DNA from: a virus
Length of the DNA stretch: 51,263 nucleotides
Strand: one strand, 5' to 3'
Virus record (IMG/VR): IMGVR_UViG_3300045988_146822
Coordinates: 1-51,263 of that record
Shown: positions 12,974 through 28,884 of the stretch, piece after piece
Position numbering within the stretch: the first letter of the stretch is position 1
Layout of the letters: each line of letters opens with the position of its first letter
Translations under genes and position numbers: made by a program
Notes under the pieces: generated by a model
What the model was told of the DNA's origin: nothing
What the model saw: the letters and a program-made list of their open reading frames with translations, nothing else
Database searches by the model: none

Positions 12974-12975
12974 TG

Positions 12976-13173
12976 TTAATGCTCCTTTATGTATTGTCTG
13001 ATTTCTTCCTTATCAAATCGCCAAAGCTTTCCGATTTTGTGGGCAGGAAGAACGCCCCTTTGTGCAAGCCGTGTTGTGTAATCAACATTAAGTGCAAGCA
13101 ACCGTGCCACATACGGCACATCAATTATCACCGGCACTTCATCCCAATTGATGATAGGTCTTTCTCTCGGCAT
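12976..13173 (-). CDS. Excisionase-family (HTH_17/MerR-like) DNA-binding protein
   Basis: 65 aa. VPYVARLLALNVDYTTRLAQRGVLPAHKIGKLWRFDKEEI is a typical HTH_17. RBS is AGGAGGTG. Confidence 0.65.
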   Translation of the reverse strand: MPRERPIINWDEVPVIIDVPYVARLLALNVDYTTRLAQRGVLPAHKIGKLWRFDKEEIRQYIKEH

Positions 13174-15309: not shown

Positions 15310-15543
15310 AAAAATCACCTCGTAACTATTATGGATTACAAAAATAAATTTACAGCAATAAAGCAATAACAAAATAAAAAACCGCCCTGCTCGACTGGTA
15401 CTCGAACAGAGCGGAATCACCTACACAGGGTGCAGATGATACGATTAAAACGCAAAATAATTGTATCACACTCCCCTGAATTTTTCAAGTTTTGAATATC
15501 AGGGGATTTTTGCACCCTTTTTTAAGCAAAAGGAGTGTATAAA

Positions 15544-16713
15544 ATGAAAAAACGCAAAGACGGGCGCTATCAGAAGAACATCTATATCGGACGAGATGAA
15601 AACGGTAAACGAAAGTACAAATCCGTATGTGGCACATCACGAAAAGAGGTTGAAACGCTTGCCGCCGAATTAAAACAAAAACTCGGCAAAGGCATAGATA
15701 TCTCATCAGATGATACATACGGATGTTGGAAAAAACGCTGGCTAACGGTTCAGAGGTCACTGCAAACACCACAGCAATACAAAACGCTTGAACGGTATCT
15801 CAAACATTTTGCAGAGCTTGAACCTTACAAAATCAACAAGCTGACAATTGCCGATTTTCAGGAAATCGTGTTCGACTTAGCCGCTAAGAACCCAACAACA
15901 GGCAAACCCACAGCGAAAAAATCGCTGAAAGAGTTCATCGCAACCGCAAGCCGAGTGTTTGAGTATGCTATTGAAAACCGAGCTATCGACTTCAACCCAC
16001 TGAAATATGTCAAAATATCAAAGAATGCGGCAAAGAAAAAAGAACGCAGAGCCTTGTCACCTGAAGAGCAAAAGCTAATAATCAACACTCCGCACAGAGG
16101 AAGATTGCCGGCAATGATTATGTTGCTTGCAGGACTGCGAAGAGGTGAATGTCTCGGCTTGCAATGGGCGGATATTGACTTGAAACGCAACAAAATAAAT
16201 GTTCATCAGACTTTGGTTCTTGACGGAAACAATTCTTACATAAAAGCAGGAGCGAAAACAGAAGCAGGTGTCCGCAAGGTTGATATTCCGACCGTTCTGT
16301 CAGACTATCTGAAAAGCTTTGCACCCCACTCCCCATTTGATTATGTAGTCACAACCACCAAAGGCAAACTTATGACAAATTCAGCGTGGCGGAGATTGTG
16401 GGAGAGCTACATCAATTGCCTAAACCTCGAAGCATTCAATTCACAGCAAGGCAAAATTGTCGGCATTGCTCCACGCAGTAAATACTGCCCCGACGGTATT
16501 CCGCAGGTCATAGAACCGTTTACAGCTCATTGTCTTAGACACACCCACGCAACAAATCTTTTCTATTCGGGCTATGATATTCTCTACATTCAACACCAGT
16601 TAGGGCATACTAAACCCGAAACCACCTTGAACATTTACACGCATTTAATGCAAGATGATACTGAAGCACCTGCGAAAAAACTTGATGATTTTCTCAATCG
16701 TAAAATAAGCTAA
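15544..16713 (+). CDS. int: Tyrosine recombinase, phage integrase (Int1)
   Basis: C-terminal HCLRHTHATNL...LGHTKPETTLNIYTH carries the R-H-R-Y catalytic signature. ATG at 15544 with GGAG 8 nt upstream. Next to the att core. Confidence 0.9.
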   Translation: MKKRKDGRYQKNIYIGRDENGKRKYKSVCGTSRKEVETLAAELKQKLGKGIDISSDDTYGCWKKRWLTVQRSLQTPQQYKTLERYLKHFAELEPYKINKLTIADFQEIVFDLAAKNPTTGKPTAKKSLKEFIATASRVFEYAIENRAIDFNPLKYVKISKNAAKKKERRALSPEEQKLIINTPHRGRLPAMIMLLAGLRRGECLGLQWADIDLKRNKINVHQTLVLDGNNSYIKAGAKTEAGVRKVDIPTVLSDYLKSFAPHSPFDYVVTTTKGKLMTNSAWRRLWESYINCLNLEAFNSQQGKIVGIAPRSKYCPDGIPQVIEPFTAHCLRHTHATNLFYSGYDILYIQHQLGHTKPETTLNIYTHLMQDDTEAPAKKLDDFLNRKIS

Positions 16714-16718
16714 AAAAT

Positions 16719-16741
16719 AAATGCAAGGCAAATGTTAGGCA
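16719..16741 (+). promoter_or_regulatory. Candidate Int1 arm-type sites AAATGCAAGGCA + AAATGTTAGGCA (left arm of phage attP)
   Basis: The same two 12-mers occur in swapped order at 30495..30517. Confidence 0.6.
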
Positions 16742-16792
16742 ACTGAACTTGAAAAGTCCGATAAACACTAAGTTTTTCACACATTTATTAAG

Positions 16793-16840
16793 TGGTTTGG
16801 GACCAAGATGCCGCAGGTTCAAGTCCTGTCACCTCGACCA
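16793..16840 (+). repeat. att core copy 1: 48-bp exact copy of the 3' part of tRNA-Pro (anticodon stem to CCA)
   Basis: tggtttgggaccaagatgccgcaggttcaagtcctgtcacctcgacca is identical to 30345..30392. No tRNA 5' half lies upstream of it here. Confidence 0.95.
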
Positions 16841-16842
16841 AA

Positions 16843-16876
16843 AAAGGTGGTTTTTTAACCGCCTTTTATTTTTTGC
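16843..16876 (+). terminator. Intrinsic terminator just after att core copy 1
   Basis: AAAGGTGG-ttttttaa-CCGCCTTT followed by a T-rich run. Confidence 0.6.
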
Positions 16877-16980
16877 CAAAATTACTTAAAATGCCTTAAA
16901 AGTGGCTTAAACACTGGGTTTTTGAGATTTCAAAAATTCAGTTGAGTAATTTTGAATTAAGTTAAAACAAGATAAAATGC

Positions 16981-17009
16981 AGTCAAACTTACTGTCAAAC
17001 TTACTGTCA
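16981..17009 (+). promoter_or_regulatory. Tandem ACTGTCAAACTT repeats: candidate Int2 arm-type sites
   Basis: agtcaaactt actgtcaaactt actgtca. Partner set ACTGTCC/ACTGTCA/ACTGTCA at 30066..30100. Confidence 0.55.
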
Positions 17010-17213
17010 TTTTAGTTTGCCTGCCGATTTTCAAAGGAACAAGATAATATATTTTAAAATTTTATTACACCGTAGCACAAAGATTTTTTACTATTAAAAT
17101 GGCAAGATGTTAAGCAATCAGAACGCTTACCCTTTTGGTAATTATTTATTATTGATTTAACTTAAAGCATTATGTATAATAGTTTTATAACAATAGATTT
17201 ACAGGGAGTAGTA

Positions 17214-19124
17214 ATGAATACAGTAAATGAAATTAAATATTTTATAACACAAAAGGAAGATAATGGTGCTCTTCTATTAACAGGAAAATGGGGCTGTGGA
17301 AAAACTTACTTAGCTAATCAAGTAATCAGCGAGCTTAACCAAGGAAACGATTTTATTGCAGTTTCCATATCATTATTTGGCGTTGATTCAATTGAGTTGC
17401 TACATAAAGAAATTAAAAACAAGGTGTTTTTTAGCAGAGGATTTGAAAAGGCACATAAAAAGGGCAAGAATGTATTTTCTAAAATAAAGAATTTTTCAAA
17501 TAACACAACTGCAATTTTAGGTGAAACTTTTCAAATTGCCAAAAGTATTAACAAGGCTCTTAATATTCGTTGGCAAGATTTTTTTAATGTTGAAAAATAC
17601 ATATACTGTTATAAAACTAATTTTGAAACAACCAATTGCCATAATAAAAACACTGAAAAAGGTAAAAAATTCATCAAAAAAAGATTGGTCTTATTCTTCG
17701 ATGATTTTGAACGCTCTAAACTTGATAGAATTGAGTTAATGGGTGTAATCAATGAATATTCTGAAAACAGAGGAATAAAAGTAATTATTATTGCAGACGA
17801 AGAGAAAATAGCAAGTAATAAAGCTGATAAAAATAATTCCGATACTAACCATCAAATAGATAACACTAACAATACAAACCTCAGTACAACCGATAGCAAT
17901 TTTAACTATTCTGATTTTAAAGAAAAACTTATATCTCGAACATTAAAAATTGAACCCGATTATAAAACTGTAATAGATACTATCCTAAGTTCTTACCAAG
18001 AAATAGTTATAGGCTACAAAGATTTTCTTATAGATAACAAGGATATTATTTATCAGATATATATTGAAAGTGATTCAAATAATTTCCGTTCAGTAAAAGC
18101 CTTTATTATAGATTATGAACGATTACATGAAGCTTGGCAAAATTCAAACATTTCCAGTGAAAATGAACCAAGTATGTTTTACAATTTCGGTGCTATGACA
18201 TTTGGAGTTAAAATGGGTTATTATAAAAAAGGAAAACACGGACTGCTATTATCATCCAGTGACTTAATGCAAAAATTTCTAAAATGGAATAATACATATA
18301 ATTTTAAAGCTTGTCAGGATTGGATTTTAAACAATGTATGGAGTAAAGAAAATTTTATATCTGAAATTAACAAAACATTCAAAGTACAATCATATACAGC
18401 AGATGAAAAATTTATGTATTTTAATCTTTGGGATTTGGAACAAAAGGATATAGAAAACGGTTTACCAAAAGTAATAGAAAATGCTTATAATGGAAAATTA
18501 ACAAGAGATCAACTTATTAATTTATTACAAAAAATTCATTATTTAAAAATATCCTCACTTTCTTTACCTTGCGATGTTGACTATTCAAAAATTGAAAGTG
18601 GTTTTGAAATTAGAAAAAAATGGATACTTGACTTTAAAACAATTGAGCCTAAAAGGCAAACTTTTTCTGAAAAATCTCAAATTGACGAAGAAGCATATTC
18701 TTTGTATGAAAACATTGAAAAATTTGATTCAATGATGTATGCTTTAGAACCTAGAATGGAATTTAAAAAATATCTTGAATCAACTGATAGTAAAAACACC
18801 TACGATTTTAGACACAAGCCCATAGGATGTTTTGATAAAAATCTCATGGAAATGTTTTGTCAAAAATATTTACAATCAAACAATGCTAGTAAAAGAGGAA
18901 TGTGTTTTACTTTTCTCGATATAGATTTTCGTGATAATGAATATTCAGATCATGATGTAAAAGAAACAATAGCGAATCTGAGAGAATTACAAAACAGACT
19001 AAATAACTCTGAACAAAACAAAAAAGACTGCATTACTGCTGCAATCAATAAATCGTTTTATGATAAAATTGATTCTAAAATTTCAGAAATTGAACAGTTT
19101 TATAATTCTATTAAAAACAGCTAA
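17214..19124 (+). CDS. KAP-family P-loop NTPase
   Basis: Walker A in the KAP form G-x-W-G-x-GKT (LLLTGKWGCGKTYL). Walker B is LVLFFDDFERS. AGGGAG RBS before the ATG at 17214. Visibly AT-rich. Confidence 0.7.
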   Translation: MNTVNEIKYFITQKEDNGALLLTGKWGCGKTYLANQVISELNQGNDFIAVSISLFGVDSIELLHKEIKNKVFFSRGFEKAHKKGKNVFSKIKNFSNNTTAILGETFQIAKSINKALNIRWQDFFNVEKYIYCYKTNFETTNCHNKNTEKGKKFIKKRLVLFFDDFERSKLDRIELMGVINEYSENRGIKVIIIADEEKIASNKADKNNSDTNHQIDNTNNTNLSTTDSNFNYSDFKEKLISRTLKIEPDYKTVIDTILSSYQEIVIGYKDFLIDNKDIIYQIYIESDSNNFRSVKAFIIDYERLHEAWQNSNISSENEPSMFYNFGAMTFGVKMGYYKKGKHGLLLSSSDLMQKFLKWNNTYNFKACQDWILNNVWSKENFISEINKTFKVQSYTADEKFMYFNLWDLEQKDIENGLPKVIENAYNGKLTRDQLINLLQKIHYLKISSLSLPCDVDYSKIESGFEIRKKWILDFKTIEPKRQTFSEKSQIDEEAYSLYENIEKFDSMMYALEPRMEFKKYLESTDSKNTYDFRHKPIGCFDKNLMEMFCQKYLQSNNASKRGMCFTFLDIDFRDNEYSDHDVKETIANLRELQNRLNNSEQNKKDCITAAINKSFYDKIDSKISEIEQFYNSIKNS

Positions 19125-19335
19125 TATAAAAAGAGGACTCGGTTTTGGAGCAGTCGAAGCAAGATGTTATTACTGATTTTTTAGTGTTATTTAACATATT
19201 ATATTTACTTTATAGAACAATAATTTGTACAAAATAACATTAAACAACACATAGTAACACTAACCGAAAGAAGAAATTTCGGATAATTTTTAGAAAATTT
19301 TTAGAAAGATTTTAGAGAACGCAACATCTATCAAC

Positions 19336-19449
19336 TTATTGCTTGTACAATAAACCTACACTACATCTTAATACATCAGAAGTGTCTTTATCAATACAGT
19401 AAACACTTCTATGTTCAAGTCTTGCCTTTTTAATATCTCTGATTTTCAT
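19336..19449 (-). CDS. Small ORF (37 aa), hypothetical
   Basis: MKIRDIKKARLEHRSVYCIDKDTSDVLRCSVGLLYKQ. Its ATG overlaps the upstream stop (TAATG). Below the ORF-track cutoff. Confidence 0.3.
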   Translation of the reverse strand: MKIRDIKKARLEHRSVYCIDKDTSDVLRCSVGLLYKQ

Positions 19450-19676
19450 TAGAATACCTCCTTTAAGTCCTGTATAATCTTTCTTCTTAGGGTTGGGGTT
19501 ATTGCTATACCTATCAGGTGAGATTCTACTGTCGTTAAAGAAATTTCTTCATCCTTGATTGCTTTTGATAATACCCTTATGTATTTATTATAGTCAGGGT
19601 GCTTTACCGCTTCCTCGGCTGATAGGTGAAAAATATTCTTCAAACTCTCATCACCTACAAAACTACATATTGTCAT
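19449..19676 (-). CDS. Hypothetical protein (75 aa)
   Basis: ORF from the track, in the IME cargo region. Confidence 0.4.
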   Translation of the reverse strand: MTICSFVGDESLKNIFHLSAEEAVKHPDYNKYIRVLSKAIKDEEISLTTVESHLIGIAITPTLRRKIIQDLKEVF

Positions 19677-19717
19677 CTTAATACCTCTTTTCTATTTTAA
19701 ATATGATTGCTTTTCTA

Positions 19718-19798
19718 TTAAAAAGTGTACCACATATAAATCACAACCAGTAAACCTACTACTACTGAACAGATAAATAGTAGTACTCCAATATCCAT
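19718..19798 (-). CDS. 26-aa hydrophobic peptide ORF
   Basis: MDIGVLLFICSVVVGLLVVIYMWYTF is a single predicted TM helix. GGAAAGG lies 11 nt upstream. Confidence 0.25.
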   Translation of the reverse strand: MDIGVLLFICSVVVGLLVVIYMWYTF

Positions 19799-19894
19799 AT
19801 ACTCTACAACCTTTCCTTTTATTTTATTATATTATACCATATATTATAATTAAATTGAATACTTTCTTTAGTATAATATTTATTTTTAACATAG

Positions 19895-19922
19895 AAAAAG
19901 AGGGTTCATAAAGAACCCTCTC
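19895..19922 (-). terminator. Intrinsic terminator after the sigma-factor gene
   Basis: GAGGGTTC-ataaa-GAACCCTC followed by T5 on the minus strand. Confidence 0.7.
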
Positions 19923-19967
19923 TTCCCAATAATTATTTTAAGGATTTACTCTTGCTATCAAATTTAA

Positions 19968-21608
19968 TCATCTGTACTCATAGTGACCGCCGTCTTTGAC
20001 TTTCTCGTCATAGGCTTCTTTCCAATAGCCGTCTTCTACTGTTTTGGTTCCTGTTTTTACATACTCTTTCTCATAATGATATGCCCCTGCTCCATTTTCT
20101 CTTGCTTCCCAAAGAAGATGTTCTCTTCTCAGGTTAGCATCTGTTAACTTCATACCGCAATTATTACATACATTGTATCCTACCCATCCATATACATCTT
20201 CTTCGTGAGTACCTGTTACAATCCACTCTCTTTCGTGGTGTACTGTTTTATAATCATCTACCCATACCTTCTGCTTTGGCTTTTCTGTAGTTGTTACAGT
20301 ACTTGAAGAAGTGCTTGGCTTAGCTGGCTTCTGATTATTACTTGAAGAGTTGCTTGGCTTCGCTGGCTTCTGATTATTACTTGAAGAGTTGCTTGGCTTA
20401 GCTGGCTTCTTGTCGTTATCAGATGTATTTGTCTTTGAAGAGTTGTCTTTCTTTGAAGATGTATTTGACTTTGTATCTTCTTTCTTTTCGGTGTTACCCT
20501 TGTTGCTGTTGTTTTTGTTAGATACTGTAGTTTTTACATCGTCAACCTTAACTGTAACTGTCTTACCGTCATCGGTTTTTACTTCTACCTTGCCGTCTTT
20601 TACTTCGACTTTCTTACCATTCTTATCAGTGATGTTGCCGTCTTTGTCGACTTTGATTTCACCCTTGTCTACCAAATCTTTAACTGCCTTTGGTACTGTT
20701 ACTGCAGGAACTGTAGTTGCCTGTGCAGTGGTCTGAGCAGAAGTTGTTGCGGTCGGAACTTTGTCACTTTTACAACCTGCAAGAAGACTTGTGCCGACTG
20801 TTGTGCCTGCAAAAAGTAAGGTCATACCGCAAGCCATAGCTATGACTTTTGTCTTAACCGCTGTAACTGCACCTGTCTTAACCGCAGTTGCGGTACTCGT
20901 TTTTACCGCTGTTGAAACACCCTTTGAAGCCGCAGTTACAAGGCTTTCTCCGTTTGGAAGTGTGATTTTTATGCTCGGAACGCAAAGGCTCTTTGCCTGC
21001 TCTCTGAAAATTGTTGTAAAGAACGGCACAAATACAACACCGTGAAGCTTGTCACCGCTTTTGTTTTCGTAATCTTCAATTGCAGTTTTCATCTTTGCCC
21101 TTGAATAATTGAGCCTTGAAAGCACAGTACCCCTTGAACATTCAAAGACTTCTGCGATTTCATCAACAGTCATTTCATTAAAATAGTGCATAATCACTGT
21201 CTGATACTGAACATCGGACAGTACTTCCTGCATAATCGAAAGAATAATTTCTCTCTTTGCCTTGTCTGAAATGTATTCTTCGGGAATTGATATACGCTCG
21301 TCAACTATTGCCTGATTTTCAAAAATTTCATCGTCCAGTTGGATTTCACCTTTACCTTTCAAATAATTTTTGCACTTATTAACGGCAATTCTGTTAAGCC
21401 AACTTCTGATTTGTGATGATTTTTCCAAAGATTGGATTTTTAAAAAAGCCGTTATGTAAGTTTCCTGCATAATGTCCTGTGCGGTTGTTTCGTTCTTTAA
21501 AAAGCTGATACAAGTAAACCACACTTCACGCTCTGTAAGCTTGTAGAGCTTTTCAAATGATTTGTTATCTCCCTTCTTAATTTTTTCTACTAAGTGGGAA
21601 ATGTTCAT
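19968..21608 (-). CDS. ECF-type sigma-70 factor fused to a TM segment and a repeat-rich extracytoplasmic domain
   Basis: Region 2 reads DIMQETYITAF...SWLNRIAVNKCKNYLK. Region 4 reads MTVDEIAEVFECSRGTVLSRLNYSRAKMK. A hydrophobic stretch (VIAMACGMTLLFAGTTVGTSLLAGC) follows, then K/T/S-rich repeats and a C-terminal Cys-containing domain. GAGGAGG RBS at start 21608. Confidence 0.75.
   Translation of the reverse strand: MNISHLVEKIKKGDNKSFEKLYKLTEREVWFTCISFLKNETTAQDIMQETYITAFLKIQSLEKSSQIRSWLNRIAVNKCKNYLKGKGEIQLDDEIFENQAIVDERISIPEEYISDKAKREIILSIMQEVLSDVQYQTVIMHYFNEMTVDEIAEVFECSRGTVLSRLNYSRAKMKTAIEDYENKSGDKLHGVVFVPFFTTIFREQAKSLCVPSIKITLPNGESLVTAASKGVSTAVKTSTATAVKTGAVTAVKTKVIAMACGMTLLFAGTTVGTSLLAGCKSDKVPTATTSAQTTAQATTVPAVTVPKAVKDLVDKGEIKVDKDGNITDKNGKKVEVKDGKVEVKTDDGKTVTVKVDDVKTTVSNKNNSNKGNTEKKEDTKSNTSSKKDNSSKTNTSDNDKKPAKPSNSSSNNQKPAKPSNSSSNNQKPAKPSTSSSTVTTTEKPKQKVWVDDYKTVHHEREWIVTGTHEEDVYGWVGYNVCNNCGMKLTDANLRREHLLWEARENGAGAYHYEKEYVKTGTKTVEDGYWKEAYDEKVKDGGHYEYR
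20313..20411. repeat. 39-bp tandem repeat, about 2.5 copies, inside the sigma-fusion gene
   Basis: gcttggcttagctggcttctgattattacttgaagagtt repeated. It encodes NSSSNNQKPAKPS units. Confidence 0.85.
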
Positions 21609-22018
21609 AAAATAACCTCCTCTCATTTCCTTTCATAATATAGACAATTTAAAACGGCTTTTGATTTTATAAAATCGAAAAATTTTTCAAATTTTTTCAA
21701 AAAAGCAAATATTTTTCGCATAAAACAAAAAGTGCGTAGCTGAAGCTACGCACGAAAAATACATAGCTTTGATTGTTGCGACACAATATTTCACTTATAA
21801 GGTGTGAAAAGTAAAGCCTGTATTTTTACCGAAATAAAAATACACACTTAGGTGAACTTAAAATTAAATTTTTGTTTGGCATTTTTATTTTAGCATACAA
21901 TATGTGAAAATTCAATATTTTTGTAAAATAACTTTCAAAAATTATATGAATGAAACTGTAAAATTTGAAGTAATTTCAATTTTAGGGGGAACAACTTTTC
22001 AGCTGTTCCCCTTTTTTG

Positions 22019-22507
22019 TCAACTGTGTAATGTTGGAGTTTTGTTTTCGCTTTGATTATACTTTTCAGAACCGAACATATCACGGATTTCATCAAGCGTT
22101 AATTCTCGTTTGCTTTTCTTGCGGTACGGCTCTGTGTGGTAATACCAAGCCTGTTTTTTGTGAGCGTATCGGAATTTTAATTCTTTCAACACTTCTTTGT
22201 GTGCTTTGGTGTTTCCCGATACCCACAACCAAGTACCGCAAATTTCAACCTCAATGTCCGAAAGACTTGTAAGCACATTGATTATATTTATAAATTCCTG
22301 CGGTGTTTCCGATGTTTCTTTGGTGTAGGTTTCACCCTCTGAATTTGTATGTATATTTTTCAGGCGTTCCCACAAAATCTCATATTCGTTTTGCATTACC
22401 TTAAATTCTTCTGTATCACCGCCTAAATCGGGGTGAAGCTGTTTAGCTAATCTTCTGTATTCCTTTTTGAGGTCTTCTGCTGTGTTACAGTTTGTAAAGT
22501 ATTTCAT
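22019..22507 (-). CDS. J-domain (DnaJ-like) protein
   Basis: LKKEYRRLAKQLHPDLGGD carries the HPD motif. Start at 22507 with AAAGGAGAA upstream. 162 aa. Confidence 0.75.
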   Translation of the reverse strand: MKYFTNCNTAEDLKKEYRRLAKQLHPDLGGDTEEFKVMQNEYEILWERLKNIHTNSEGETYTKETSETPQEFINIINVLTSLSDIEVEICGTWLWVSGNTKAHKEVLKELKFRYAHKKQAWYYHTEPYRKKSKRELTLDEIRDMFGSEKYNQSENKTPTLHS

Positions 22508-22559
22508 AATGGTTTCTCCTTTGAAAGTTAATTTCAATTAAACTTTATATTCGGTAATT

Positions 22560-22940
22560 CTGAATTGGTGGGCTTTTAATAAGTCCGATTTAGATATTCA
22601 CGCTGTATTTTTCACTCCTTTCTGATTTTTTATATTCGTTTAAATCGTCATCGTATGGGCTTTATGAGCATTAAAAGCGTAGCGAAATTTCATAAGTCAA
22701 GAAGCAAGTTTACGATACGCCGTAGGGCAATTCTTTACTTATAAAATAAGCGTAGCAAAATGTGAAATTAAAGCCTACGGTGACGATTTGAATATAGAAA
22801 ACAGTTAAGGCTTGTGAGCATGAATATCGGCAAAAATCGGACAAAAAAATAACGCTATGGCTTTAACCATAGCGAACCTTATAAAAATAAACCGCAGAAA
22901 ATATAAAATTCCCTGCGGTTTCGTTATGATTAGTTACAAA
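22560..22940. other. Highly structured noncoding region (candidate single-strand origin or ncRNA)
   Basis: Long-range imperfect inverted repeat 22641..22663 / 22770..22789. Direct repeat AAGCGTAGC(G/A)AAAT at about 22675 and about 22748. Perfect hairpin CGCTATGG-ctttaa-CCATAGCG (22852..22873). Hairpin AACCGCAG...CTGCGGTT (22890..22920). The last two are followed by T runs on the minus strand. Confidence 0.4.
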
Positions 22941-22991
22941 TATCCCAAAATTCGCAACTCCATGTGTTTTTATATAATCAAGAACTTCAAA
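22941..22991 (+). repeat. 51-bp exact repeat, copy 1, promoter-like (TTCGCA-16-TATAAT)
   Basis: tatcccaaaattcgcaactccatgtgtttttatataatcaagaacttcaaa is identical to 25693..25743. It lies 41 nt upstream of the ATG at 23033. Confidence 0.9.
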
Positions 22992-23032
22992 GATTGCTTT
23001 AGAGGTTCAAAAAATATGAAGGAGGATTTTTT

Positions 23033-23788
23033 ATGAATAAAAAATCTTTTAGGGTGGTACTGCTCACCTATTTTGCAGTAGCTTTTTTCGTAATTATGGC
23101 TTTCGGCTCTGAATATCTTTCAGAGTGCAACAAACTCGGAATACCGTTTTCTTTGTCAGGAGCAGTAAGTTATTTGCTGACAGGGTTTATCTGCCTAATT
23201 GCAATGACTGTTTTGGTTGTGGTTTTCTTGTTGGTATTGGAATTGAGCGACAGAAAATCTATCAAATCCGCTCTTCGCTTAACAGCTAATTTTGCTTCAA
23301 ACAAAGCAAGAATGAAAGTTGTAAACAGCGTTTATCCGAGCTTACTTTACTTTTTGTATGATGTATTACAGAGCAACAACGAGTTTTTAAAACTTCCGCT
23401 TGGTAAAGATTGCAGTTCTCTCTTAAAAGAGGGGTACAATCCACTATGTGTTGACAACTGTATTTTTTACACCTTTCAGATTATTATGCCAAAAAAATCA
23501 TATGACTTTGATGAAGATACATTAAAGCAAATTATCCAATCGTATATTGAAGCTCAATTGCTTAATTACGGCATGGTTAATTTACCCTCATACTACAACA
23601 GCAAATCCTACGGTATGATACCGAGCGTATATATTGAAAAGGTTGTATATAACGAGGAACAGCATTTACTAAAATTTGCCGTGATGTATATTAGCTGTGA
23701 AGATGATGTAAGGCATTATATCAAATCCAAAAAGAGAGATGAACAGCTGAATATAACAACAGATAAGGTGTATGACGATGAGGTTTGA
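23033..23788 (+). CDS. Membrane protein, hypothetical
   Basis: Two N-terminal hydrophobic helices. GAAGGAGG RBS. 251 aa. Confidence 0.6.
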   Translation: MNKKSFRVVLLTYFAVAFFVIMAFGSEYLSECNKLGIPFSLSGAVSYLLTGFICLIAMTVLVVVFLLVLELSDRKSIKSALRLTANFASNKARMKVVNSVYPSLLYFLYDVLQSNNEFLKLPLGKDCSSLLKEGYNPLCVDNCIFYTFQIIMPKKSYDFDEDTLKQIIQSYIEAQLLNYGMVNLPSYYNSKSYGMIPSVYIEKVVYNEEQHLLKFAVMYISCEDDVRHYIKSKKRDEQLNITTDKVYDDEV

Positions 23789-24500
23789 TAGCAGTAAATT
23801 AACTGTCGGTGTAGATTTATCTATTCTTTCACAGGGTGTAAAAGTGCCTGTTACGGTGGACTTTTCCTCTGTACCTCATATGCTGATAGTAGCACCAAGC
23901 GGAAGCGGTAAAACTTATCTTCTAACATACATATTAGGTCAAATAGCAAAGAAGTCTGTCAAATTGATTTTGGCAGACTTTAAAGGCATTGACTTTATTG
24001 AGTTTAATGACTGTCGGAATTACTATAAGCATAATTCTGTCGGTGAAGCTGTTGACTGTGTTTTTGATGAATTACAAAACAGAATGGCAAATGCAAGTGT
24101 AAATTCAGAATATGAACCGATTTATTTATGTATTGATGAGTGGTCAGGTTTCCTCAGTTCTTTAGCCGTAAAGAAAGAGCAGGATCACTACAAGCAAAAA
24201 CTTGCCAACATTCTTATGTTAGGTCGAGGTGCAAATATTTTTATCATTATGTCACTACAAAGAGCCGATTCAACATATATTACAGGACGAGATAACTTTG
24301 GCAATGTGGTAGGTCTTGGTACGCTCAGCAAAGAGAGTATAGCAATGGTATTTAATGATAATAAGGAGATGATAGAACCAAAATCAAGGGGCAAAGGATA
24401 TCTGCAAACTGACGGAAAGCCTTTGAGAGAAATAGTTGTGCCTATGTTACGAAACATAAACGATACAAAAGCCGTTATAAAAACAGCTTTATCCCGATAA
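23772..24500 (+). CDS. FtsK/SpoIIIE-family DNA translocase-like ATPase (coupling-protein type)
   Basis: Walker A is VAPSGSGKTYL and Walker B is IYLCIDEWSG. 242 aa. Confidence 0.7.
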   Translation: MTMRFDSSKLTVGVDLSILSQGVKVPVTVDFSSVPHMLIVAPSGSGKTYLLTYILGQIAKKSVKLILADFKGIDFIEFNDCRNYYKHNSVGEAVDCVFDELQNRMANASVNSEYEPIYLCIDEWSGFLSSLAVKKEQDHYKQKLANILMLGRGANIFIIMSLQRADSTYITGRDNFGNVVGLGTLSKESIAMVFNDNKEMIEPKSRGKGYLQTDGKPLREIVVPMLRNINDTKAVIKTALSR

Positions 24501-24536
24501 TTATTTGTACAGCAAATTGAATATTTATGCACAAGA

Positions 24537-24571
24537 ATAGCTCAATCATTACTCTGATTGGGCTATTTTTT
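24537..24571 (+). terminator. Intrinsic terminator after the FtsK-like gene
   Basis: AATAGCTCAATC...GATTGGGCTATT followed by T6. Confidence 0.65.
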
Positions 24572-24850
24572 ATGCTTTAAAATAAATTGTCGTTGCTTGT
24601 GGTTTATGGCAATGTTTTATGGTCGATAAAATAGCGTTTTTTACTATTAGCCAAAATTGCACTATACCCTATAACACATTTCTTTGTACCCTAACACTTT
24701 CAAAATCTAAAACCATACCTTTTTTGTCGTGGTTGATACATCTGAACCTTGGTTGAGTATCAATTCTTCCCTGCGTTTCTAACATAAGCACTTATAGAGT
24801 GTGTCCTGCACTCTGTGTAAATTTATGGCACAAGAAAGTTGTCAATAATT

Positions 24851-25669
24851 ATGCAAAGAAATGCATACAAGAAGGCTATTGGAGAAAGAATACAGCAGTT
24901 GAGAAAGGGGCTTAGAAAAGAAGGCTTTAACGGTCAGCCTAAGACTGTAAATGAGTTTCTTGAGTTTTTAAACCCGAAAATTGATGATGATTATGATAAT
25001 TACGGTGACTATTCGCTTACTGACATTAAATTTAACTATAAAAAGGATTATGTCAGTAAGGTTGAACACGGAATCGTTTTTCCGTCCACTGATTTTTTAT
25101 TTCTCATTCATCTGCGTTTTAATGTTTCTTTAGATTATTTGGTTTTCGGTCATAATTTACCCGAAATTGAAGAATTAAGGAAAATTTGTAAACATTCAGG
25201 TAAAAGCAAGATTAACGATTTTTGCTTTAATTGCTTTAATTTATTAGAGGGTAATTCAAAATATATCGAAGATTTTGATGATGAAGATGAAGATTTTTTT
25301 CTTGATTATAGAGCTCGATTAGATGAGGTACGCAAGTATTTTTGTAATCATCAACAAAGGAAATTGACACAAAAACAGTTCAGCGAATTGTTAGGTGTAT
25401 CTAAAAACACAATGGACAAGTATCATTCAAAGAAAAGTGATGTTCAGAGCAAAAAGTATGCAGACATAAGAAATACTGCTCTTGAGTATCTGATTAGATT
25501 TTCGCTCACTACAAAATGTTCGTTAGATTACTTATTGTATGGTACATATCTCTTAGAGGGCTTTCCCAGTGAACTTATGGAATTGCTTCGTAATTATGAC
25601 TATGCAAAGCAAACGCAAATCTTGAAGTTGTGGCTTGAAGAAACAAAAAAATTTTTTAAAAATTCTTAA
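24851..25669 (+). CDS. Double XRE-like HTH regulator
   Basis: Two HTH-like segments, each ending in SLDYL(V/L)(F/Y)G. An acidic linker separates them. The start is uncertain (TTG at 24839 or ATG at 24851). Confidence 0.55.
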   Translation: MQRNAYKKAIGERIQQLRKGLRKEGFNGQPKTVNEFLEFLNPKIDDDYDNYGDYSLTDIKFNYKKDYVSKVEHGIVFPSTDFLFLIHLRFNVSLDYLVFGHNLPEIEELRKICKHSGKSKINDFCFNCFNLLEGNSKYIEDFDDEDEDFFLDYRARLDEVRKYFCNHQQRKLTQKQFSELLGVSKNTMDKYHSKKSDVQSKKYADIRNTALEYLIRFSLTTKCSLDYLLYGTYLLEGFPSELMELLRNYDYAKQTQILKLWLEETKKFFKNS

Positions 25670-25692
25670 AAAGGGGTATTTCCTATCCAAAG

Positions 25693-25743
25693 TATCCCAA
25701 AATTCGCAACTCCATGTGTTTTTATATAATCAAGAACTTCAAA
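25693..25743 (+). repeat. 51-bp exact repeat, copy 2 (promoter-like)
   Basis: Identical to 22941..22991. It lies 32 nt upstream of the ATG at 25776. Confidence 0.9.
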
Positions 25744-25775
25744 TGAAGTTCAAAATAAACAGAAAGGAGATAGCT

Positions 25776-26117
25776 ATGGATATTAAAAATGCAAAAATTG
25801 ATGTACTGGGTTCTGTTGGCAGTAAGTTATTGTTGATAGATGTTATACCGTCATATGCCTATGTGGATGGACGCCGAACAAGCACGGTTACAGGATATAA
25901 GTATATCGTTATTCTTGAGGAAAATAAGTTTGATAGGCTTAGCGTTCGTATTGACGGTGATAAACAGATTGACAATCCTATTGACGGCAACAGCCGTATT
26001 TATGTACGCTTTGATAATCTTGAATTATCGCTGTATTGGACAAGTGCAGGACATCAGATTGCGGCAAAGGCAAGTGCTATTCATTTAGTTAATGAGAGTC
26101 TTAAACCGCAAAAGTAA
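25776..26117 (+). CDS. Hypothetical 113-aa protein, possibly DUF961/HelP-like by size and position upstream of the relaxase gene
   Basis: AAAGGAGA RBS 5 nt before the ATG at 25776. The family assignment is a guess from context only. Confidence 0.5.
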   Translation: MDIKNAKIDVLGSVGSKLLLIDVIPSYAYVDGRRTSTVTGYKYIVILEENKFDRLSVRIDGDKQIDNPIDGNSRIYVRFDNLELSLYWTSAGHQIAAKASAIHLVNESLKPQK

Positions 26118-26122
26118 TTGCT

Positions 26123-26229
26123 TTGCCGTGGGCGGTAGCACCGTCAAGGTGCGAACCGCCTGACGGCAAGTCAATCCCCTCACTTTTAATGAAGGGGATA
26201 ATATAATTTTATCGAATATGCGTTCGATA
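26123..26229 (+). promoter_or_regulatory. Three consecutive hairpins upstream of the Rep_trans gene: candidate oriT / double-strand origin
   Basis: Outer stem TTGCCGTGGGCGGT / ACCGCCTGACGGCAA (26123..26169) encloses the inner hairpin GCACC-gtcaa-GGTGC. Then ATCCCCT...AGGGGAT (26173..26199) and TATCGAA-tatgcg-TTCGATA (26210..26229). Confidence 0.45.
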
Positions 26230-26249
26230 TTATAGGAGTGATTATATGA

Positions 26250-27545
26250 ATGGATAAAGAATTGAAAGTCGGTGTAGATGAATTTTCTTTAGTTTTCTTT
26301 TATCCGATTGACGATGTTTGTAACGATTGGCAAAGTACAGCTTATTCAATGATACAGGAATTTATCTATAAGGCAGACATAGAACTGTTGCTCGGTAAAG
26401 TTGTAGAAATGCGTGATAAAAAGCCGCAGGCATATTCACAAGCATTTACTATTGAGAACGCTCCATATTATTTCACTATAGCGTTACACGAAACTTTTGT
26501 GCATATGGGAATATTAGTTCGTTTCTCTGCTCACTCTTGGGCAGTATATCAAAAGCGGTATTTTGATTTCTACGGTGAGAATATAAATATCGGAAAATTT
26601 TTAAGCAACATTGAAAGTCCGTTATACAGATACAGACTGAGCCGTATAGATTTAACTGCTGACTACAAAAATTATGATTTATCACCGCATAGCATATACA
26701 GCAGGTTAAAGGACGAAAGTCTACAGGTGCTTGACTGTAACTACAGACACAGTAAAGGAAAGATTTCTTCTGTTGAAAAAAATTTGGTGACTGAGTCAAT
26801 CTATATCGGTTCAAGGGCTGAAAACGCACAGTCACTACTTCGGGTTTATGATAAAAAATCGGAGCAAATTAGCAACAACGGTTTTCGCCTTGATGAAGCA
26901 TTGCAGTGCGACAGTTGGGTTAGATTTGAGGCTTCATACAGAGGAAACTATGCTCATCAAATAACCGAGCAATTGGAACATATAACAGATGATGTTTCTG
27001 TATCGCAGTTCATTGCAAGCAAAATATGTGACAGATACCGTTTTTATGACCCTCTTAACAGCTGTTTTACTGATTTTACAAACGACCTGCTTAAAATAAT
27101 TGAATGCAGTAATTTTCACGCTTTGCGTTGTGAAAGTCCTGCTAACAATAGTTTGAATAAAAGCATTCAGCATATTATTTACGGTAGCGGTTTGTTCCCT
27201 TTGATATACAAAATCAGCGTTATATGGGGTGAAAAAGCTGTTGCTGAATTTTGGAGTATTCTGTATGAAATATACAAGAAATACCATAAGAAAAAACTTG
27301 AAATTAACCCTCAGATAAGGGCTTGGCTTAGAAAGAATTTTCTTAGCTTATCACAGCAAAGTTTATCAGATTGCTTTGTCAGTGTTGACCTTACAAAGAT
27401 TGATGTTGCCGAGATTGTAAATAAGATCTCCGAAAGTGACAATCCGTTTACACTAACGGCAATAAACACAAGCAGTAACACAGATAATCAGGTAGTATCT
27501 GATGAAGAATTTGAACGCACTTTTTATTCAAAGGATATGGAGTGA
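26250..27545 (+). CDS. Rep_trans-family rolling-circle replication initiator / relaxase
   Basis: LSRIDLTADYKNYD and VRFEASYRGNYAHQ resemble the conserved Rep_trans blocks of the NicK/Orf20/RepC type. 431 aa. Confidence 0.65.
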   Translation: MDKELKVGVDEFSLVFFYPIDDVCNDWQSTAYSMIQEFIYKADIELLLGKVVEMRDKKPQAYSQAFTIENAPYYFTIALHETFVHMGILVRFSAHSWAVYQKRYFDFYGENINIGKFLSNIESPLYRYRLSRIDLTADYKNYDLSPHSIYSRLKDESLQVLDCNYRHSKGKISSVEKNLVTESIYIGSRAENAQSLLRVYDKKSEQISNNGFRLDEALQCDSWVRFEASYRGNYAHQITEQLEHITDDVSVSQFIASKICDRYRFYDPLNSCFTDFTNDLLKIIECSNFHALRCESPANNSLNKSIQHIIYGSGLFPLIYKISVIWGEKAVAEFWSILYEIYKKYHKKKLEINPQIRAWLRKNFLSLSQQSLSDCFVSVDLTKIDVAEIVNKISESDNPFTLTAINTSSNTDNQVVSDEEFERTFYSKDME

Positions 27546-27696
27546 GATATTGAACCCGAAATACATAAATACCGAGAAACTTAATTTCTTATAAACACAC
27601 AAATAAAAACCGAAAAACCTAAAAACTGATTACCATAGAAATATGATTATCTTACTTCATATTTTTATATTATAATTTTCTATAAGGAGAATGATT

Positions 27697-28176
27697 ATGA
27701 GTGATAATTATATGCTTAATGAAGTAGTAAAGTATTGGAAGCTAACAAATGACCTTTTAGTAGCTTTTGAGGACTTTAACGGTCAAATACAAAAGCATAC
27801 GGTTCATTTGCCAAAAGAGGACATTGACACAATTCTTAATATCGGAATCACAACAGGTATTAAAAATTGGTGCGACAGAGTTGATATTTTAGAGGACAAA
27901 CTGCTTGGGACTTATTATAGTGAACAAGTGTCAAGAGGCGGTTCTCTGATATTTCATGACAAAATTTTTGATAGAGTCGGAGTTATGACTCTTTCGAATT
28001 TTCTCCAGTCATATGGCTGTATATACAGTGCGGCAACCTCATACGGTCTTAGTGAGCATTGTATTGACGGTTACTTTTACAATTCACCTCGCATATGTGA
28101 TTACATCATTCAGTTCGCTTTGTTTGAAGATATACCCTATTTTCACGCAGAAGAAACGGAAGGTGGTAGCATATGA
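27697..28176 (+). CDS. Hypothetical protein
   Basis: AAGGAGA RBS before the ATG at 27697. 159 aa. Confidence 0.5.
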   Translation: MSDNYMLNEVVKYWKLTNDLLVAFEDFNGQIQKHTVHLPKEDIDTILNIGITTGIKNWCDRVDILEDKLLGTYYSEQVSRGGSLIFHDKIFDRVGVMTLSNFLQSYGCIYSAATSYGLSEHCIDGYFYNSPRICDYIIQFALFEDIPYFHAEETEGGSI

Positions 28177-28601
28177 ATGATGAGAAAAAGAATATGTGTG
28201 ATGAAGATGATTCCGATGAAATTCTCGAATATACAGGCGGTAGCGAGCTTAGCGATTTAACCTTTCAGACGGGTTATGAGAACTATTCGCAATGGCGAAT
28301 AAAAGAGATTCTAAAAGAAGTTGGTTTTAGATTAGAGCCTCTATATGTAGGATACAAAGCTCTTCGATACCGTCCGTGTCAGAGGTATTGGGTAGTAAAT
28401 ATCCTCACAGGAGAAAGAGTAGGCAATTCATACAACGGTTTTAGTTTTGAGGATTTGAGATATGTACTTGCAAGATGTGGATATTCATTGCATAGTCAAC
28501 ATTATAATCCCACCAGAGATAAGGACGGCAGACGCACTTCTTGTAAGGAGTTTCTTGAGCTTGTAGAAAGCCTTCCTGATGAAAAGGAGGACTTAATATG
28601 A
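28173..28601 (+). CDS. Hypothetical acidic protein
   Basis: ATGA overlap with the upstream ORF. 142 aa. Confidence 0.5.
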   Translation: MNDEKKNMCDEDDSDEILEYTGGSELSDLTFQTGYENYSQWRIKEILKEVGFRLEPLYVGYKALRYRPCQRYWVVNILTGERVGNSYNGFSFEDLRYVLARCGYSLHSQHYNPTRDKDGRRTSCKEFLELVESLPDEKEDLI

Positions 28602-28774
28602 GTGTAGAGATTAAATTCATCGGTACTAAAGAGGTTGCCGAAGCACTCGGTTGTTCCTTGCCTACTGCACGCAATATTATGTTGAGAGCAGATTTCCCTT
28701 TAATACGGGTAGGTAAAAATCTTAAAGTTGAGCTAAATGCTTTTCTTAACTGGTCGCAGAAAAGAAGGGTATGA
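28598..28774 (+). CDS. xis: Excisionase-family HTH protein (Xis of the nested element)
   Basis: 58 aa, below the ORF-track cutoff: MSVEIKFIGTKEVAEALGCSLPTARNIMLRADFPLIRVGKNLKVELNAFLNWSQKRRV. GGAGG RBS. Directly upstream of Int2. Confidence 0.65.
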   Translation: MSVEIKFIGTKEVAEALGCSLPTARNIMLRADFPLIRVGKNLKVELNAFLNWSQKRRV

Positions 28775-28811
28775 GCATTTAAAGCATTTACATAATATTT
28801 AAGCAACCGTA

Positions 28812-28840: not shown

Positions 28841-28884
28841 ACTGATATAGTAAAAATCTTTTGTGCTTTACGGTTTGGAAAGGA

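What the first reader, a model, noticed from the sequence alone, without database searches (positions are those of the whole stretch)
16719..16741. Phage-specific arm-type repeats flank the att core only when the nested element is removed
The 12-mers AAATGCAAGGCA and AAATGTTAGGCA occur back to back at 16719..16741, just after the int1 stop and 51 nt before core copy 1. They occur again in swapped order at 30495..30517, 102 nt after core copy 2.

In the window the two clusters are 13.7 kb apart. After recombination between the cores they would form a compact roughly 300-bp attP with sites on both arms. That is the classic arrangement for tyrosine-integrase arm binding. It independently identifies 16714..16792 plus 30393..30520 as the phage attP arms.
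Basis: seen in the sequence. Interest (0 to 1): 0.7.

Follow-up and report, generated by a model that had tools for sequence, protein, structure and literature searches.

The report
Prophage attachment-site arm repeats, no nesting
The two repeat pairs are very likely the integrase-binding "arm" sites of an ordinary gut-bacterium prophage sitting in a proline tRNA gene, and the DNA between them is host chromosome joined into a ring by the assembler, not an element nested in the phage.

Summary
AAATGYWAGGCA occurs exactly four times in the window, as two back-to-back pairs with an 11-bp period. One pair lies 5 nt after the int1 stop and 51 nt before the 48-bp tRNA-Pro core copy. The other lies 102 nt after the tRNA-Pro 3' end. 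About 0.08 copies are expected by chance.

The arm-site reading is well supported. A related phage contig (L078) has pair-core-pair contiguous at identical spacings, which is attP. Phage-free contigs 100% identical to the window have one intact tRNA-Pro and no motif, which is attB. Integrase homologues at 79-55% identity carry tandem repeats at the same positions. Their sequence changes with the integrase (AGGCA, then AGTCA, then CACCT units), and in one lineage it changes on both arms together.

The "nested element" reading is not supported. The window is a circular assembly path with a 55-bp terminal overlap. It closes through a 59-bp repeat (21861-21919) that occurs twice on the Ruminococcus bromii chromosome. 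Chromosomal contigs of 40-177 kb show the linear order Int2 element, tRNA-Pro::prophage, KAP, sigma-like gene, housekeeping genes.

This is a new member of a known kind. The architecture matches phage mv4 and mycobacteriophage attP sites. Integrase binding to the repeats was not tested.

The parts
15535..16713 (+). int1, a tyrosine integrase. The likely start is the ATG at 15544, giving 389 aa. The N-terminal ~58 aa are a probable arm-binding domain.
   Evidence: PF00589 E=1.9e-20. PF14657 Arm-DNA-bind_4 scores only 10.4 bits in Int1 itself but is above its cut-off in aligned homologues P0040, P0092, P0097 and P0098. The AF2 model has strands 9-17 and 23-30 and a helix at 33-46, pLDDT 81.
16719..16741 (+). 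P-arm pair of 11-bp arm-type repeats (AAATGCAAGGC, AAATGTTAGGC, then A), lying in attR of the prophage
   Evidence: Both units are present in 63 of 66 Int1-retrieved loci, and the other 3 have one point-mutated unit. Co-varying tandem repeats sit at the same place in 7 divergent Int homologues.
16760..16769 (+). GATAAACACT, a second conserved P-arm element at a fixed position. Its orientation is flipped in some lineages. It may be an accessory-factor site (inferred).
   Evidence: the same 10-mer, with at most 1 mismatch, or its reverse complement starts 36 nt 5' of TTTGGGACC in window, L078 and L162 (forward) and in L160, L161 and L331 (reverse). It is absent in L159.
16793..16840 (+). Core copy 1: 48 bp identical to tRNA-Pro positions 30-77 (anticodon stem to 3' end). 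This is the displaced tRNA fragment in attR.
16841..21860 (.). Host chromosome downstream of attB: a terminator, the KAP NTPase gene 17172-19124 (+), and sigma-like gene B 19968-21626 (-)
   Evidence: L325, a 141.5-kb scaffold, matches window 5544-21919 without a mismatch and continues into HAD, Wzy_C, FUR and rubrerythrin genes. L146 joins 16841.. directly to an intact tRNA-Pro.
21861..21919 (.). 59-bp repeat through which the circular contig closes. Two direct copies lie on the chromosome, upstream of sigma-like genes A and B.
   Evidence: B-side contigs match the window exactly up to 21919 and A-side contigs exactly from 21861. L152 carries both copies, at 2987 and 16538.
21920..30315 (.). 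Host DNA upstream of attB: an integrative element with DnaJ-like, FtsK/HerA-like, HTH and Rep_trans genes and Int2 (28861/28885-30066, +). Its right end is near 30148. The tRNA-Pro promoter region follows.
   Evidence: Pfam. 98% identical in R. bromii ATCC 27255, where it ends at 30152. L150 matches 21861-30470 exactly.
30316..30392 (+). Intact tRNA-Pro (UGG). Core copy 2 is 30345-30392. Together with the P' arm this is attL.
   Evidence: ARAGORN.
30393..30453 (+). Terminator hairpin directly after the tRNA, carried on the phage P' arm
   Evidence: Inverted repeat 30391-30415 / 30425-30449. It is present in the intact attP of L073/L078.
30495..30517 (+). P'-arm pair of 11-bp arm-type repeats (AAATGTTAGGC, AAATGCAAGGC, then A)
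   Evidence: It is contiguous with core and P arm in L078. P'-side pairs start 102-104 nt after the tRNA end in four different unit classes.
12976..13173 (-). 65-aa HTH_17 protein, a candidate excisionase (recombination directionality factor)
   Evidence: PF12728 E=9.6e-10, 39 bits. The function is inferred from family membership only.
1..55 (.). 55-bp direct terminal repeat, identical to 51209-51263, marking the window as a circular assembly path. The phage ArpU-like regulator (133-543, -) and terminase large subunit (49515-51167, -) are adjacent across it.

Best explanation
The window is a circularised metagenomic assembly. It holds a 37.7-kb temperate siphovirus-like prophage, probably of Ruminococcus bromii, integrated in tRNA-Pro(UGG), plus 13.5 kb of flanking chromosome.

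The two repeat pairs are the arm-type sites of the phage attP. Here they are split between attR (int1, then the P-arm pair, 51 nt, then the 48-bp core) and attL (tRNA-Pro, a phage-borne terminator, then the P'-arm pair 102 nt after the tRNA end).

Proposed mechanism: Int1 is a heterobivalent tyrosine integrase. Its N-terminal domain binds the two adjacent 11-bp direct repeats on each arm. Its core-binding and catalytic domains bind the core at the anticodon stem-loop. This bridging folds a roughly 250-bp attP into an intasome that recombines with the bare tRNA-Pro attB. The phage copy of tRNA positions 30-77 plus its own terminator regenerates the gene. Excision reverses the reaction, probably with the 65-aa HTH_17 protein as directionality factor.

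Shown by sequence: all four att site types, the repeat geometry, and its conservation and covariation across integrase lineages. Inferred: physical binding of the N-domain to the repeats, the crossover inside the anticodon loop, and the role of the HTH_17 protein and of the GATAAACACT element.
For: (1) The motif is restricted to the two clusters: 4 copies against 0.08 expected.

(2) attP: L073/L078 has pair-core-pair contiguous. Units end 63 and 52 nt before the core and start 102 and 113 nt after it, identical to the window.

(3) attB: L146 is 100% identical to the window on both sides. It joins 25900-30392 directly to 16841-19589 through one tRNA-Pro and has no motif. The same holds in L140-L142, L145, L147, L148, L152, L155 and L157.

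(4) About 60 prophage contigs have attL with pair 2 and attR with pair 1.

(5) Unbiased test on Int homologues. Tandem repeats begin 0-10 nt after the int stop in every lineage examined: AAATGTTAGGC/AGATGTTAGGC at 79% identity, AAATGCAAGGC x2 at 71%, GATATTAGTCA/TATGTTAGTCA at 64%, three TTAGTCA units at 63%, TTTGACACACCT x2 at 59%, TTGAGCCACCTG/TTGAACCACCTA at 56%, and TTGAGCCACCTG x2 at 55%.

(6) L331 (Int 55% identical) is an intact attP lying between int and the lysis genes. It carries its own unit on both arms. In tRNA orientation those units end 59 and 47 nt before a 49-bp core and start 103 and 115 nt after it.

(7) N-domain residue 31 is C, F or Y according to unit class. The N-domain of the CACCT class has diverged more than the rest of the protein (48-50% against 56-62% identity).

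(8) PF14657 arm-binding domain is above its cut-off in aligned homologues, and the Int1 model has a beta-beta-alpha N-domain.

(9) The architecture equals that shown experimentally for mv4: two pairs of adjacent 11-bp direct repeats at the ends of a 215-bp attP (bioRxiv 10.1101/2023.11.06.565760).
Against: No binding or recombination data exist for this phage. Int1 itself scores below the Pfam cut-off for the arm-binding domain (10.4 bits against 22.3). The N-domain model found no significant structural neighbour in the PDB (best E 0.46), and no PDB chain matched residues 1-58 by profile.

The close relatives (98-99% Int identity) add little independent weight, and most P' arms (L074-L138) were retrieved using the motif itself. 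Covariation of both arms together is shown in only one divergent lineage (L331/L332). The P' arm of the AGTCA class could not be found. No P-arm copy of the GGTGGCTCA unit was retrieved for the L170-type phage.
Confidence: 0.85

Rival explanations
1. One reading: the 51-kb ring is a real phage genome, or a physical cointegrate, in which a 13.5-kb integrative element carrying Int2 has inserted into the phage attP core and split the arms.
For: The window is a closed path with phage genes contiguous across its ends. The arc contains a genuine mobile-element gene set: Rep_trans, an FtsK-like protein and Int2. Two phage-free contigs (L142, L143) show the same KAP/sigma-like to Int2-element connectivity. 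Recombination between the two 59-bp direct repeats could in principle release exactly this circle.
Against: Half of the arc (16793-21919) is identical to chromosome that runs on into HAD, Wzy, FUR and rubrerythrin genes in contigs of 41-177 kb. The ring closes through a 59-bp repeat only 4 bp longer than the 55-bp overlap. L152 shows both repeat copies on one linear contig with the Int2 element, tRNA-Pro and KAP between them. The Int2 element ends at about 30148, not in the tRNA core, in ATCC 27255 and in the class B contigs. The junctions are exactly the attL and attR expected from Int1 acting on the attB seen in L146. From general knowledge of headful and cos packaging limits, a 51.2-kb genome is 136% of the 37.7-kb phage.
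Confidence: 0.08
2. The repeats are real protein-binding sites, but for an excisionase, repressor or host factor and not for the integrase N-domain.
For: Excisionases also bind tandem direct repeats in att arms and co-evolve with their integrases (general knowledge of lambda Xis). An HTH_17 gene is present. Int1's arm-binding domain is below the Pfam threshold.
Against: The pairs are on both arms, in equal number, at the outer ends of attP. That is the pattern of Int arm sites in mv4 and in Cluster J phages; lambda-type Xis sites lie on one arm only. The repeats begin right after the int stop codon in eight lineages whichever side of the core int lies on. The unit class tracks an N-domain residue.
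Confidence: 0.06
3. The repeats are chance matches, or a relic of a local duplication, with no function.
For: The sequence is AT-rich. The close relatives are nearly identical by descent, so conservation among them proves little.
Against: 4 copies are found against 0.08 expected. The flanks of the two clusters share no similarity and the unit order differs, which argues against a simple duplication. The same geometry, with different unit sequences, is seen in lineages down to 55% Int identity.
Confidence: 0.01

Closest known systems
Phage mv4 Int/attP (Lactobacillus delbrueckii; Tn916-Int subgroup of heterobivalent tyrosine recombinases)
   Same: Both integrate at a tRNA gene in a Bacillota host. 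The mv4 attP is about 215 bp, with two pairs of adjacent 11-bp arm-binding sites in direct repeat, one pair at the outer end of each arm, and binding needs two 11-bp sites. Here the attP is 247 bp with two pairs of adjacent 11-bp direct repeats at the outer ends.
   Different: The tRNA differs (Pro, not Ser), and the identity block is longer (48 bp against a 17-21-bp core). Binding has not been shown here. The sequence relationship of Int1 to mv4 Int was not tested.
Mycobacteriophage L5 and Cluster J integration cassettes
   Same: int is followed by attP. A 44-bp common core overlaps a tRNA gene, with its left end in the anticodon loop. The core is flanked by pairs of imperfect direct-repeat arm-type sites (P1/P2 and P3/P4) (PMC3706429).
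   Different: The host is an actinobacterium, the units are 10 bp, and the integrase lineage differs. In Cluster J no correspondence between N-domain variants and site sequence was seen, whereas here the unit class tracks the integrase.
Phage lambda Int/attP (P1, P2, P'1-P'3)
   Same: The principle is the same: an N-terminal arm-binding domain plus core-binding and catalytic domains, a roughly 240-bp attP and a simple attB (general knowledge). The profile of Int1 homologues matches the lambda Int core-binding region (1z1b).
   Different: Lambda has five arm sites arranged unevenly, depends on IHF, Xis and Fis, and does not target a tRNA. Its arm-domain sequence is not detectably related.
tRNA-gene integration, anticodon-loop class (Williams 2002 classification, from my own knowledge; Islander database, PMC4383910, abstract as listed)
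   Same: The identity block runs from the anticodon stem (tRNA positions 29-33) to the 3' end. The element regenerates the tRNA and leaves a displaced 3' fragment at its far end.
   Different: Nothing notable. The phage also brings its own terminator for the regenerated tRNA.

Membership tests
Heterobivalent tyrosine integrase with arm-type sites (lambda / Tn916-Int / mv4 type) | C-terminal tyrosine-recombinase catalytic domain | tested here: met
   PF00589 E=1.9e-20 at residues 187-371. PDB hits include Tn1549 Int 6emy, XerA and IntI4.
Heterobivalent tyrosine integrase with arm-type sites (lambda / Tn916-Int / mv4 type) | Separate N-terminal arm-binding domain | tested here: inconclusive
   PF14657 scores 10.4 bits in Int1 (cut-off 22.3) but 25-33 bits in homologues P0040, P0092, P0097 and P0098 at the aligned residues. 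D6, G7, R8 and G16 are invariant. The AF2 model is beta-beta-alpha with pLDDT 81. There is no significant Foldseek hit and no PDB profile hit for residues 1-58.
Heterobivalent tyrosine integrase with arm-type sites (lambda / Tn916-Int / mv4 type) | Repeated sites on both attP arms whose sequence differs from the core | tested here: met
   Two 11-bp units on each arm, found nowhere else in the window. They are contiguous with the core in L078.
Heterobivalent tyrosine integrase with arm-type sites (lambda / Tn916-Int / mv4 type) | attP x attB gives attL + attR, with a simple attB lacking arm sites | tested here: met
   attP is in L073/L078, attB is in L146 and nine other contigs without the motif, and attL and attR are in the window and in about 60 contigs.
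Heterobivalent tyrosine integrase with arm-type sites (lambda / Tn916-Int / mv4 type) | Arm-site sequence co-varies with the integrase | tested here: met
   Eight lineages fall into three unit classes (AGGCA, AGTCA, CACCT). Both arms change together in L331.
Heterobivalent tyrosine integrase with arm-type sites (lambda / Tn916-Int / mv4 type) | Core with inverted core-type sites around a 6-8-bp overlap | tested here: inconclusive
   The identity block starts at tRNA positions 29-33 in all lineages, so the anticodon stem-loop (CTTGG TTTGGGA CCAAG) could supply it. The phage copy keeps only 3 of the 5 left-stem bases. The crossover point was not mapped.
Heterobivalent tyrosine integrase with arm-type sites (lambda / Tn916-Int / mv4 type) | Physical binding of Int to the arm sites, and their requirement for recombination | not testable with these tools
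   Needs EMSA or footprinting and recombination assays.
tRNA-integrating element, anticodon-loop class | The element carries the tRNA segment from the anticodon region to the 3' end and regenerates an intact gene | tested here: met
   The 48-bp block equals tRNA positions 30-77. ARAGORN calls an intact tRNA-Pro at attL.
   The arc is a mosaic of two chromosomal regions joined at a 59-bp repeat. The Int2 element ends near 30148 in ATCC 27255 and in the class B contigs, not in the core.
   Only an assembly ring with a 55-bp overlap is available. Contigs of 41-177 kb show the linear chromosomal order instead. The reads of the source sample are not available.

The most novel reading that the evidence does not exclude
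The 51.2-kb ring is a physical molecule. Recombination between the two 59-bp direct repeats, or an equivalent event, releases a circle carrying the prophage together with the Int2/Rep_trans element, the tRNA-Pro gene and the KAP NTPase island. Prophage induction could then move a neighbouring mobile element and a candidate defence gene. Separately, the position-fixed GATAARCACT element, whose orientation flips between lineages, could be a previously undescribed accessory-factor site of this integrase family.
Probability: 0.07. Interest if true: 0.55.

Novelty: new member of a known kind. Interest (0 to 1): 0.22.

Why it matters
The result gives a well-supported, experimentally testable attP/attB pair: a 247-bp attP and tRNA-Pro(UGG), with a predicted 11-bp arm-site consensus AAATGYWAGGC. 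It belongs to a widespread family of prophages of Ruminococcus bromii, a keystone starch-degrading gut bacterium with few genetic tools. Such a cassette could serve as an integration vector.

The comparative series has three unit classes, one conserved geometry and an N-domain residue that tracks the class. It is a small natural experiment on how arm-site specificity evolves.

It is also a warning for virome catalogues. A contig flagged as a complete circular phage genome here holds 13.5 kb of host chromosome, because a 59-bp repeat exceeded the 55-bp overlap length (presumably the assembler's k).

Tried and rejected
- Megablast of 14000-17200 against GenBank phages found no match.
- A direct repeat of GTTACCTGCACCA, which might be the Int2 element's att core, has no second copy in the window or within 10 kb upstream in L150-L158. 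The Int2 element's left boundary therefore stays unresolved.
- I tested the idea that the 13.5-kb arc is a free circular element carrying its own tRNA-Pro. I rejected it because L140 and L152 have two different sigma-like paralogues at the two ends (73% identity) and run on into the chromosome.
- Conservation of cluster 2 in L074-L138 was discounted, because those loci were fetched with the motif itself.
- Foldseek of the N-domain model against the PDB found nothing significant. Neither phmmer nor a profile search reached a solved arm-binding domain.
- One search used the wrong spacing (the GGTGGCTC units are 12 nt apart, not 11) and returned only unrelated hits.
- With the corrected, flexible spacing I still retrieved no P-arm copy of the GGTGGCTCA unit for the L170-type phage, so that two-arm prediction is untested.
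- Searches for a P' arm of the AGTCA-class phages found nothing (in viral contigs, in metagenomes).
- A literature search for R. bromii prophage integration found nothing relevant.
- My first by-eye spacing for L331 (54 and 96 nt) was wrong. One search gives 47 and 103 nt.

Full report
**1. Observation**

Adjacent units share one base, so each pair is two 11-bp units in direct repeat. The degenerate pattern AAATGYWAGGCA has 4 exact matches against 0.08 expected, and no shuffle gave more than 1. Allowing two mismatches shows no excess anywhere else (17 found, 25 expected). The first pair starts 5 nt after the int1 ORF ends (16713) and ends 51 nt before a 48-bp block (16793-16840). That block is identical to positions 30-77 of the only tRNA gene in the window, tRNA-Pro(UGG) at 30316-30392. 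The second pair starts 102 nt after the tRNA 3' end.

**2. What surrounds it**

- Left of 16713 are phage early genes on the minus strand: a primase-like protein, helicases, a repressor/M78-peptidase pair and an ArpU-like regulator.
- Right of 30517 are late genes on the minus strand: endolysin, holin, the 1205-aa ORF 36681-40298, portal and terminase large subunit.
- The first 55 nt of the window equal the last 55 nt. The window is therefore a circular assembly path of 51,208 bp, and the terminase and ArpU-like genes are neighbours across the junction.
- Between the two core copies lie a KAP-family NTPase, a 552-aa sigma-70-like protein, and a gene set typical of a small integrative element: DnaJ-like, FtsK/HerA-like, HTH, Rep_trans and a second tyrosine integrase, Int2.

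**3. All four att site types are found in public data**

- attR: a search with Int1 returned 73 viral-contig loci at 98-99% identity. 63 of the 66 that extend past the int stop have both P-arm units followed by the core, and the other three have one point-mutated unit.
- attP: in one contig (IMGVR_UViG_3300045988_088843, 31.3 kb) int is split across the contig ends, and pair 1, core and pair 2 are contiguous. Units end 63 and 52 nt before the core and start 102 and 113 nt after it, exactly as in the window (L073/L078).
- attB: an exact-protein lookup with the KAP NTPase and with Int2 found phage-free contigs in which window 25900-30392 is joined directly to 16841-19589 through a single intact tRNA-Pro. 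L146 is 100% identical on both sides, and none of these contigs carries the motif.
- attL: about 60 contigs have the intact tRNA-Pro followed by pair 2 at a constant distance. Most of these were fetched with the motif itself, so their conservation is not independent evidence.

**4. An unbiased test using divergent integrases**

Homologues of Int1 at 79-55% identity were taken from the protein database and their contigs fetched without reference to the motif. In every lineage examined, tandem repeats begin 0-10 nt after the int stop codon.

| Int identity | Locus | Repeat units |
|---|---|---|
| 79% | L159 | AAATGTTAGGC / AGATGTTAGGC |
| 71% | L162 | AAATGCAAGGC x2 |
| 64% | L160 | GATATTAGTCA / TATGTTAGTCA |
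| 63% | L161 | three units ending in TTAGTCA |
| 59% | L333 | TTTGACACACCT x2 |
| 56% | L330 | TTGAGCCACCTG / TTGAACCACCTA |
| 55% | L331/L332 | TTGAGCCACCTG x2 |

All target the same tRNA-Pro, with the identity block starting at tRNA positions 29-33.

L331 is an intact attP lying between int and the lysis genes. Its own unit occurs as a pair on both arms. In tRNA orientation the units end 59 and 47 nt before a 49-bp core and start 103 and 115 nt after it. Another phage type at the same tRNA (L170 and others) and L333 also start their P'-side pairs 103-104 nt after the tRNA end. So the geometry is held while the unit sequence changes with the integrase.

In the aligned N-terminal 58 residues, position 31 is C in the three AGGCA-class proteins, F in the two AGTCA-class and Y in the three CACCT-class. 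The N-domain of the CACCT class has diverged more than the rest of the protein (48-50% against 56-62% identity). With eight sequences this is a correlation, not a proof.

**5. The integrase**

Int1 has a clear catalytic domain. Its N-terminus (KRKDGRYQKNIYIGRDENGKRKYKSVCG...) matches Pfam Arm-DNA-bind_4 only weakly: 10.4 bits against a cut-off of 22.3. Homologues that align over the same residues score 25-33 bits, and D6, G7, R8 and G16 are invariant in the alignment. An AlphaFold model of residues 1-80 (pLDDT 81) has two long strands and a helix. That is compatible with the sheet-plus-helix arm-binding fold, but Foldseek found no significant PDB neighbour, and a profile search reached only the core-binding and catalytic domains of solved integrases. 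The arm-binding domain is therefore probable, not demonstrated.

**6. The 'nested element'**

- Chromosomal contigs of 40-118 kb carrying the window's exact Int2 read: sigma-like A, DnaJ, FtsK-like, HTH, Rep_trans, Int2, tRNA-Pro. After that comes either a prophage or, in L152 and L155, KAP, sigma-like B, HAD hydrolase, Wzy_C, deacetylase, FUR and rubrerythrin.
- Contigs of 141.5 and 176.7 kb carrying the window's exact Int1 read: phage early genes, Int1, attR, (KAP), sigma-like B, HAD, Wzy_C and so on.
- Base-by-base comparison shows that the 'B-side' contigs match the window without a mismatch up to 21919. L325 matches from 5544 to 21919.
- The 'A-side' contigs match without a mismatch from 21861. 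L150 matches from 21861 to 30470.
- To the left of 21861 the A-side contigs fall to 64-88% identity. To the right of 21919 the B-side contigs run into unrelated chromosomal genes.
- The shared segment is 59 bp, four more than the 55-bp terminal overlap. L152 carries both copies in direct orientation on one contig.

The ring is therefore the path phage, attR, KAP, sigma-like B, 59-bp repeat, Int2 element, tRNA-Pro, attL, phage. This is most simply an assembly cycle. A real circle made by recombination between the repeats is not excluded but has no support.

The Int2 element is 98% identical in R. bromii ATCC 27255, which identifies the likely host. There it ends at window coordinate about 30150, some 2 kb from an unoccupied, inverted tRNA-Pro. 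So Int2 does not appear to use the tRNA core.

**7. Comparison with known systems**

The arrangement is the classical one for heterobivalent tyrosine integrases. The closest described case is phage mv4. Its attP is about 215 bp, with two pairs of adjacent 11-bp arm-binding sites in direct repeat at the ends of the two arms. It integrates at a tRNA 3' end in a Bacillota host, and its integrase belongs to the Tn916-Int subgroup (bioRxiv 10.1101/2023.11.06.565760). [quoted passage not shown] I found nothing here that departs from this kind.

**8. Verdict**

The arm-site and attP reading is right with high confidence, although binding is untested. The nesting is an artefact of a circularised contig. 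This is a new member of a known kind, of modest interest.

The most useful by-products are:
- a defined attP/attB pair for R. bromii phages;
- a natural covariation series for arm-site specificity;
- a position-fixed second P-arm element (GATAARCACT);
- a concrete example of host DNA inside a 'complete circular' viral contig.

Noticed in passing
window 16760-16769; L162, L160, L161, L331, L078: GATAARCACT or its exact reverse complement starts 36 nt 5' of the anticodon-loop sequence TTTGGGACC, at the same position, in five integrase lineages. It is forward in window, L078 and L162 and reversed in L160, L161 and L331, and it is absent in L159. In L331 it is part of a TTTATCGGATAAA palindrome. 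It may be a site for an accessory protein.
   Followed up: partly
window 1-55 / 51209-51263 and 21861-21919: The contig would pass as a complete circular viral genome because of its 55-bp terminal repeat. In fact it contains 13.5 kb of host chromosome, because a 59-bp chromosomal repeat closes the assembly path.
   Followed up: yes
window 16982-17005 and 30084-30100; L150-L158 positions ~30-65: The tandem GTCAAACTTACT x2 lies 141 nt after core copy 1, and GTCAACTTTACTGTCAC lies 17 nt after the int2 stop. In the phage-free state both flank the tRNA-Pro. The tandem also recurs left of sigma-like gene A. These are candidate arm sites for Int2, but the Int2 element's att core and left end were not found.
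   Followed up: partly
window 30128-30152; L139 9718-9734; L079, L091, L128: The Int2 element and a different integrase-bearing element (the class B contigs) share the same right junction, GTTACCTGCACCA followed by a terminator, about 170 nt upstream of tRNA-Pro. This suggests a second attachment hot spot beside the tRNA.
   Followed up: partly
window 17172-19124: The KAP-family P-loop NTPase gene is present in some strains and absent in others between the tRNA-Pro flank and sigma-like gene B. L324 and most IMG/VR attR flanks lack it. It is variable cargo, possibly defence-related.
   Followed up: no
window 19968-21626 versus L152 1032-2714: The two 550-aa sigma-70-like paralogues A and B show mosaic identity, alternating between 64% and 100% in 150-nt bins. 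This suggests repeated gene conversion between the two loci.
   Followed up: no
L139 11845-11913 (R. bromii ATCC 27255) versus window 30393-30453: The unoccupied tRNA-Pro of the type strain is followed by the same terminator that the phage carries on its P' arm, and diverges just before the arm repeats. It is either a scar of a lost prophage or the source of the phage's copy.
   Followed up: no
L287, L293, L304 versus L170, L331: The same AGGTGGCTCA x2 pair lies about 100 nt after the 3' end of a different tRNA gene in other viral contigs. Arm-site specificity and core (tRNA) specificity therefore seem to reassort.
   Followed up: no
L160 ~3860-3890; L238: Yet another tandem unit, TGACCAC at an 11-bp period, lies beside tRNA-Pro-type cores next to other integrases. 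Tandem arrays of elements at this tRNA each seem to bring their own repeat type.
   Followed up: no
window 23033-23788 and 23772-24500: The FtsK/HerA-like region is split into two overlapping ORFs of 251 and 242 aa. The same split is called in all related contigs, so it is not a sequencing error in this window.
   Followed up: no
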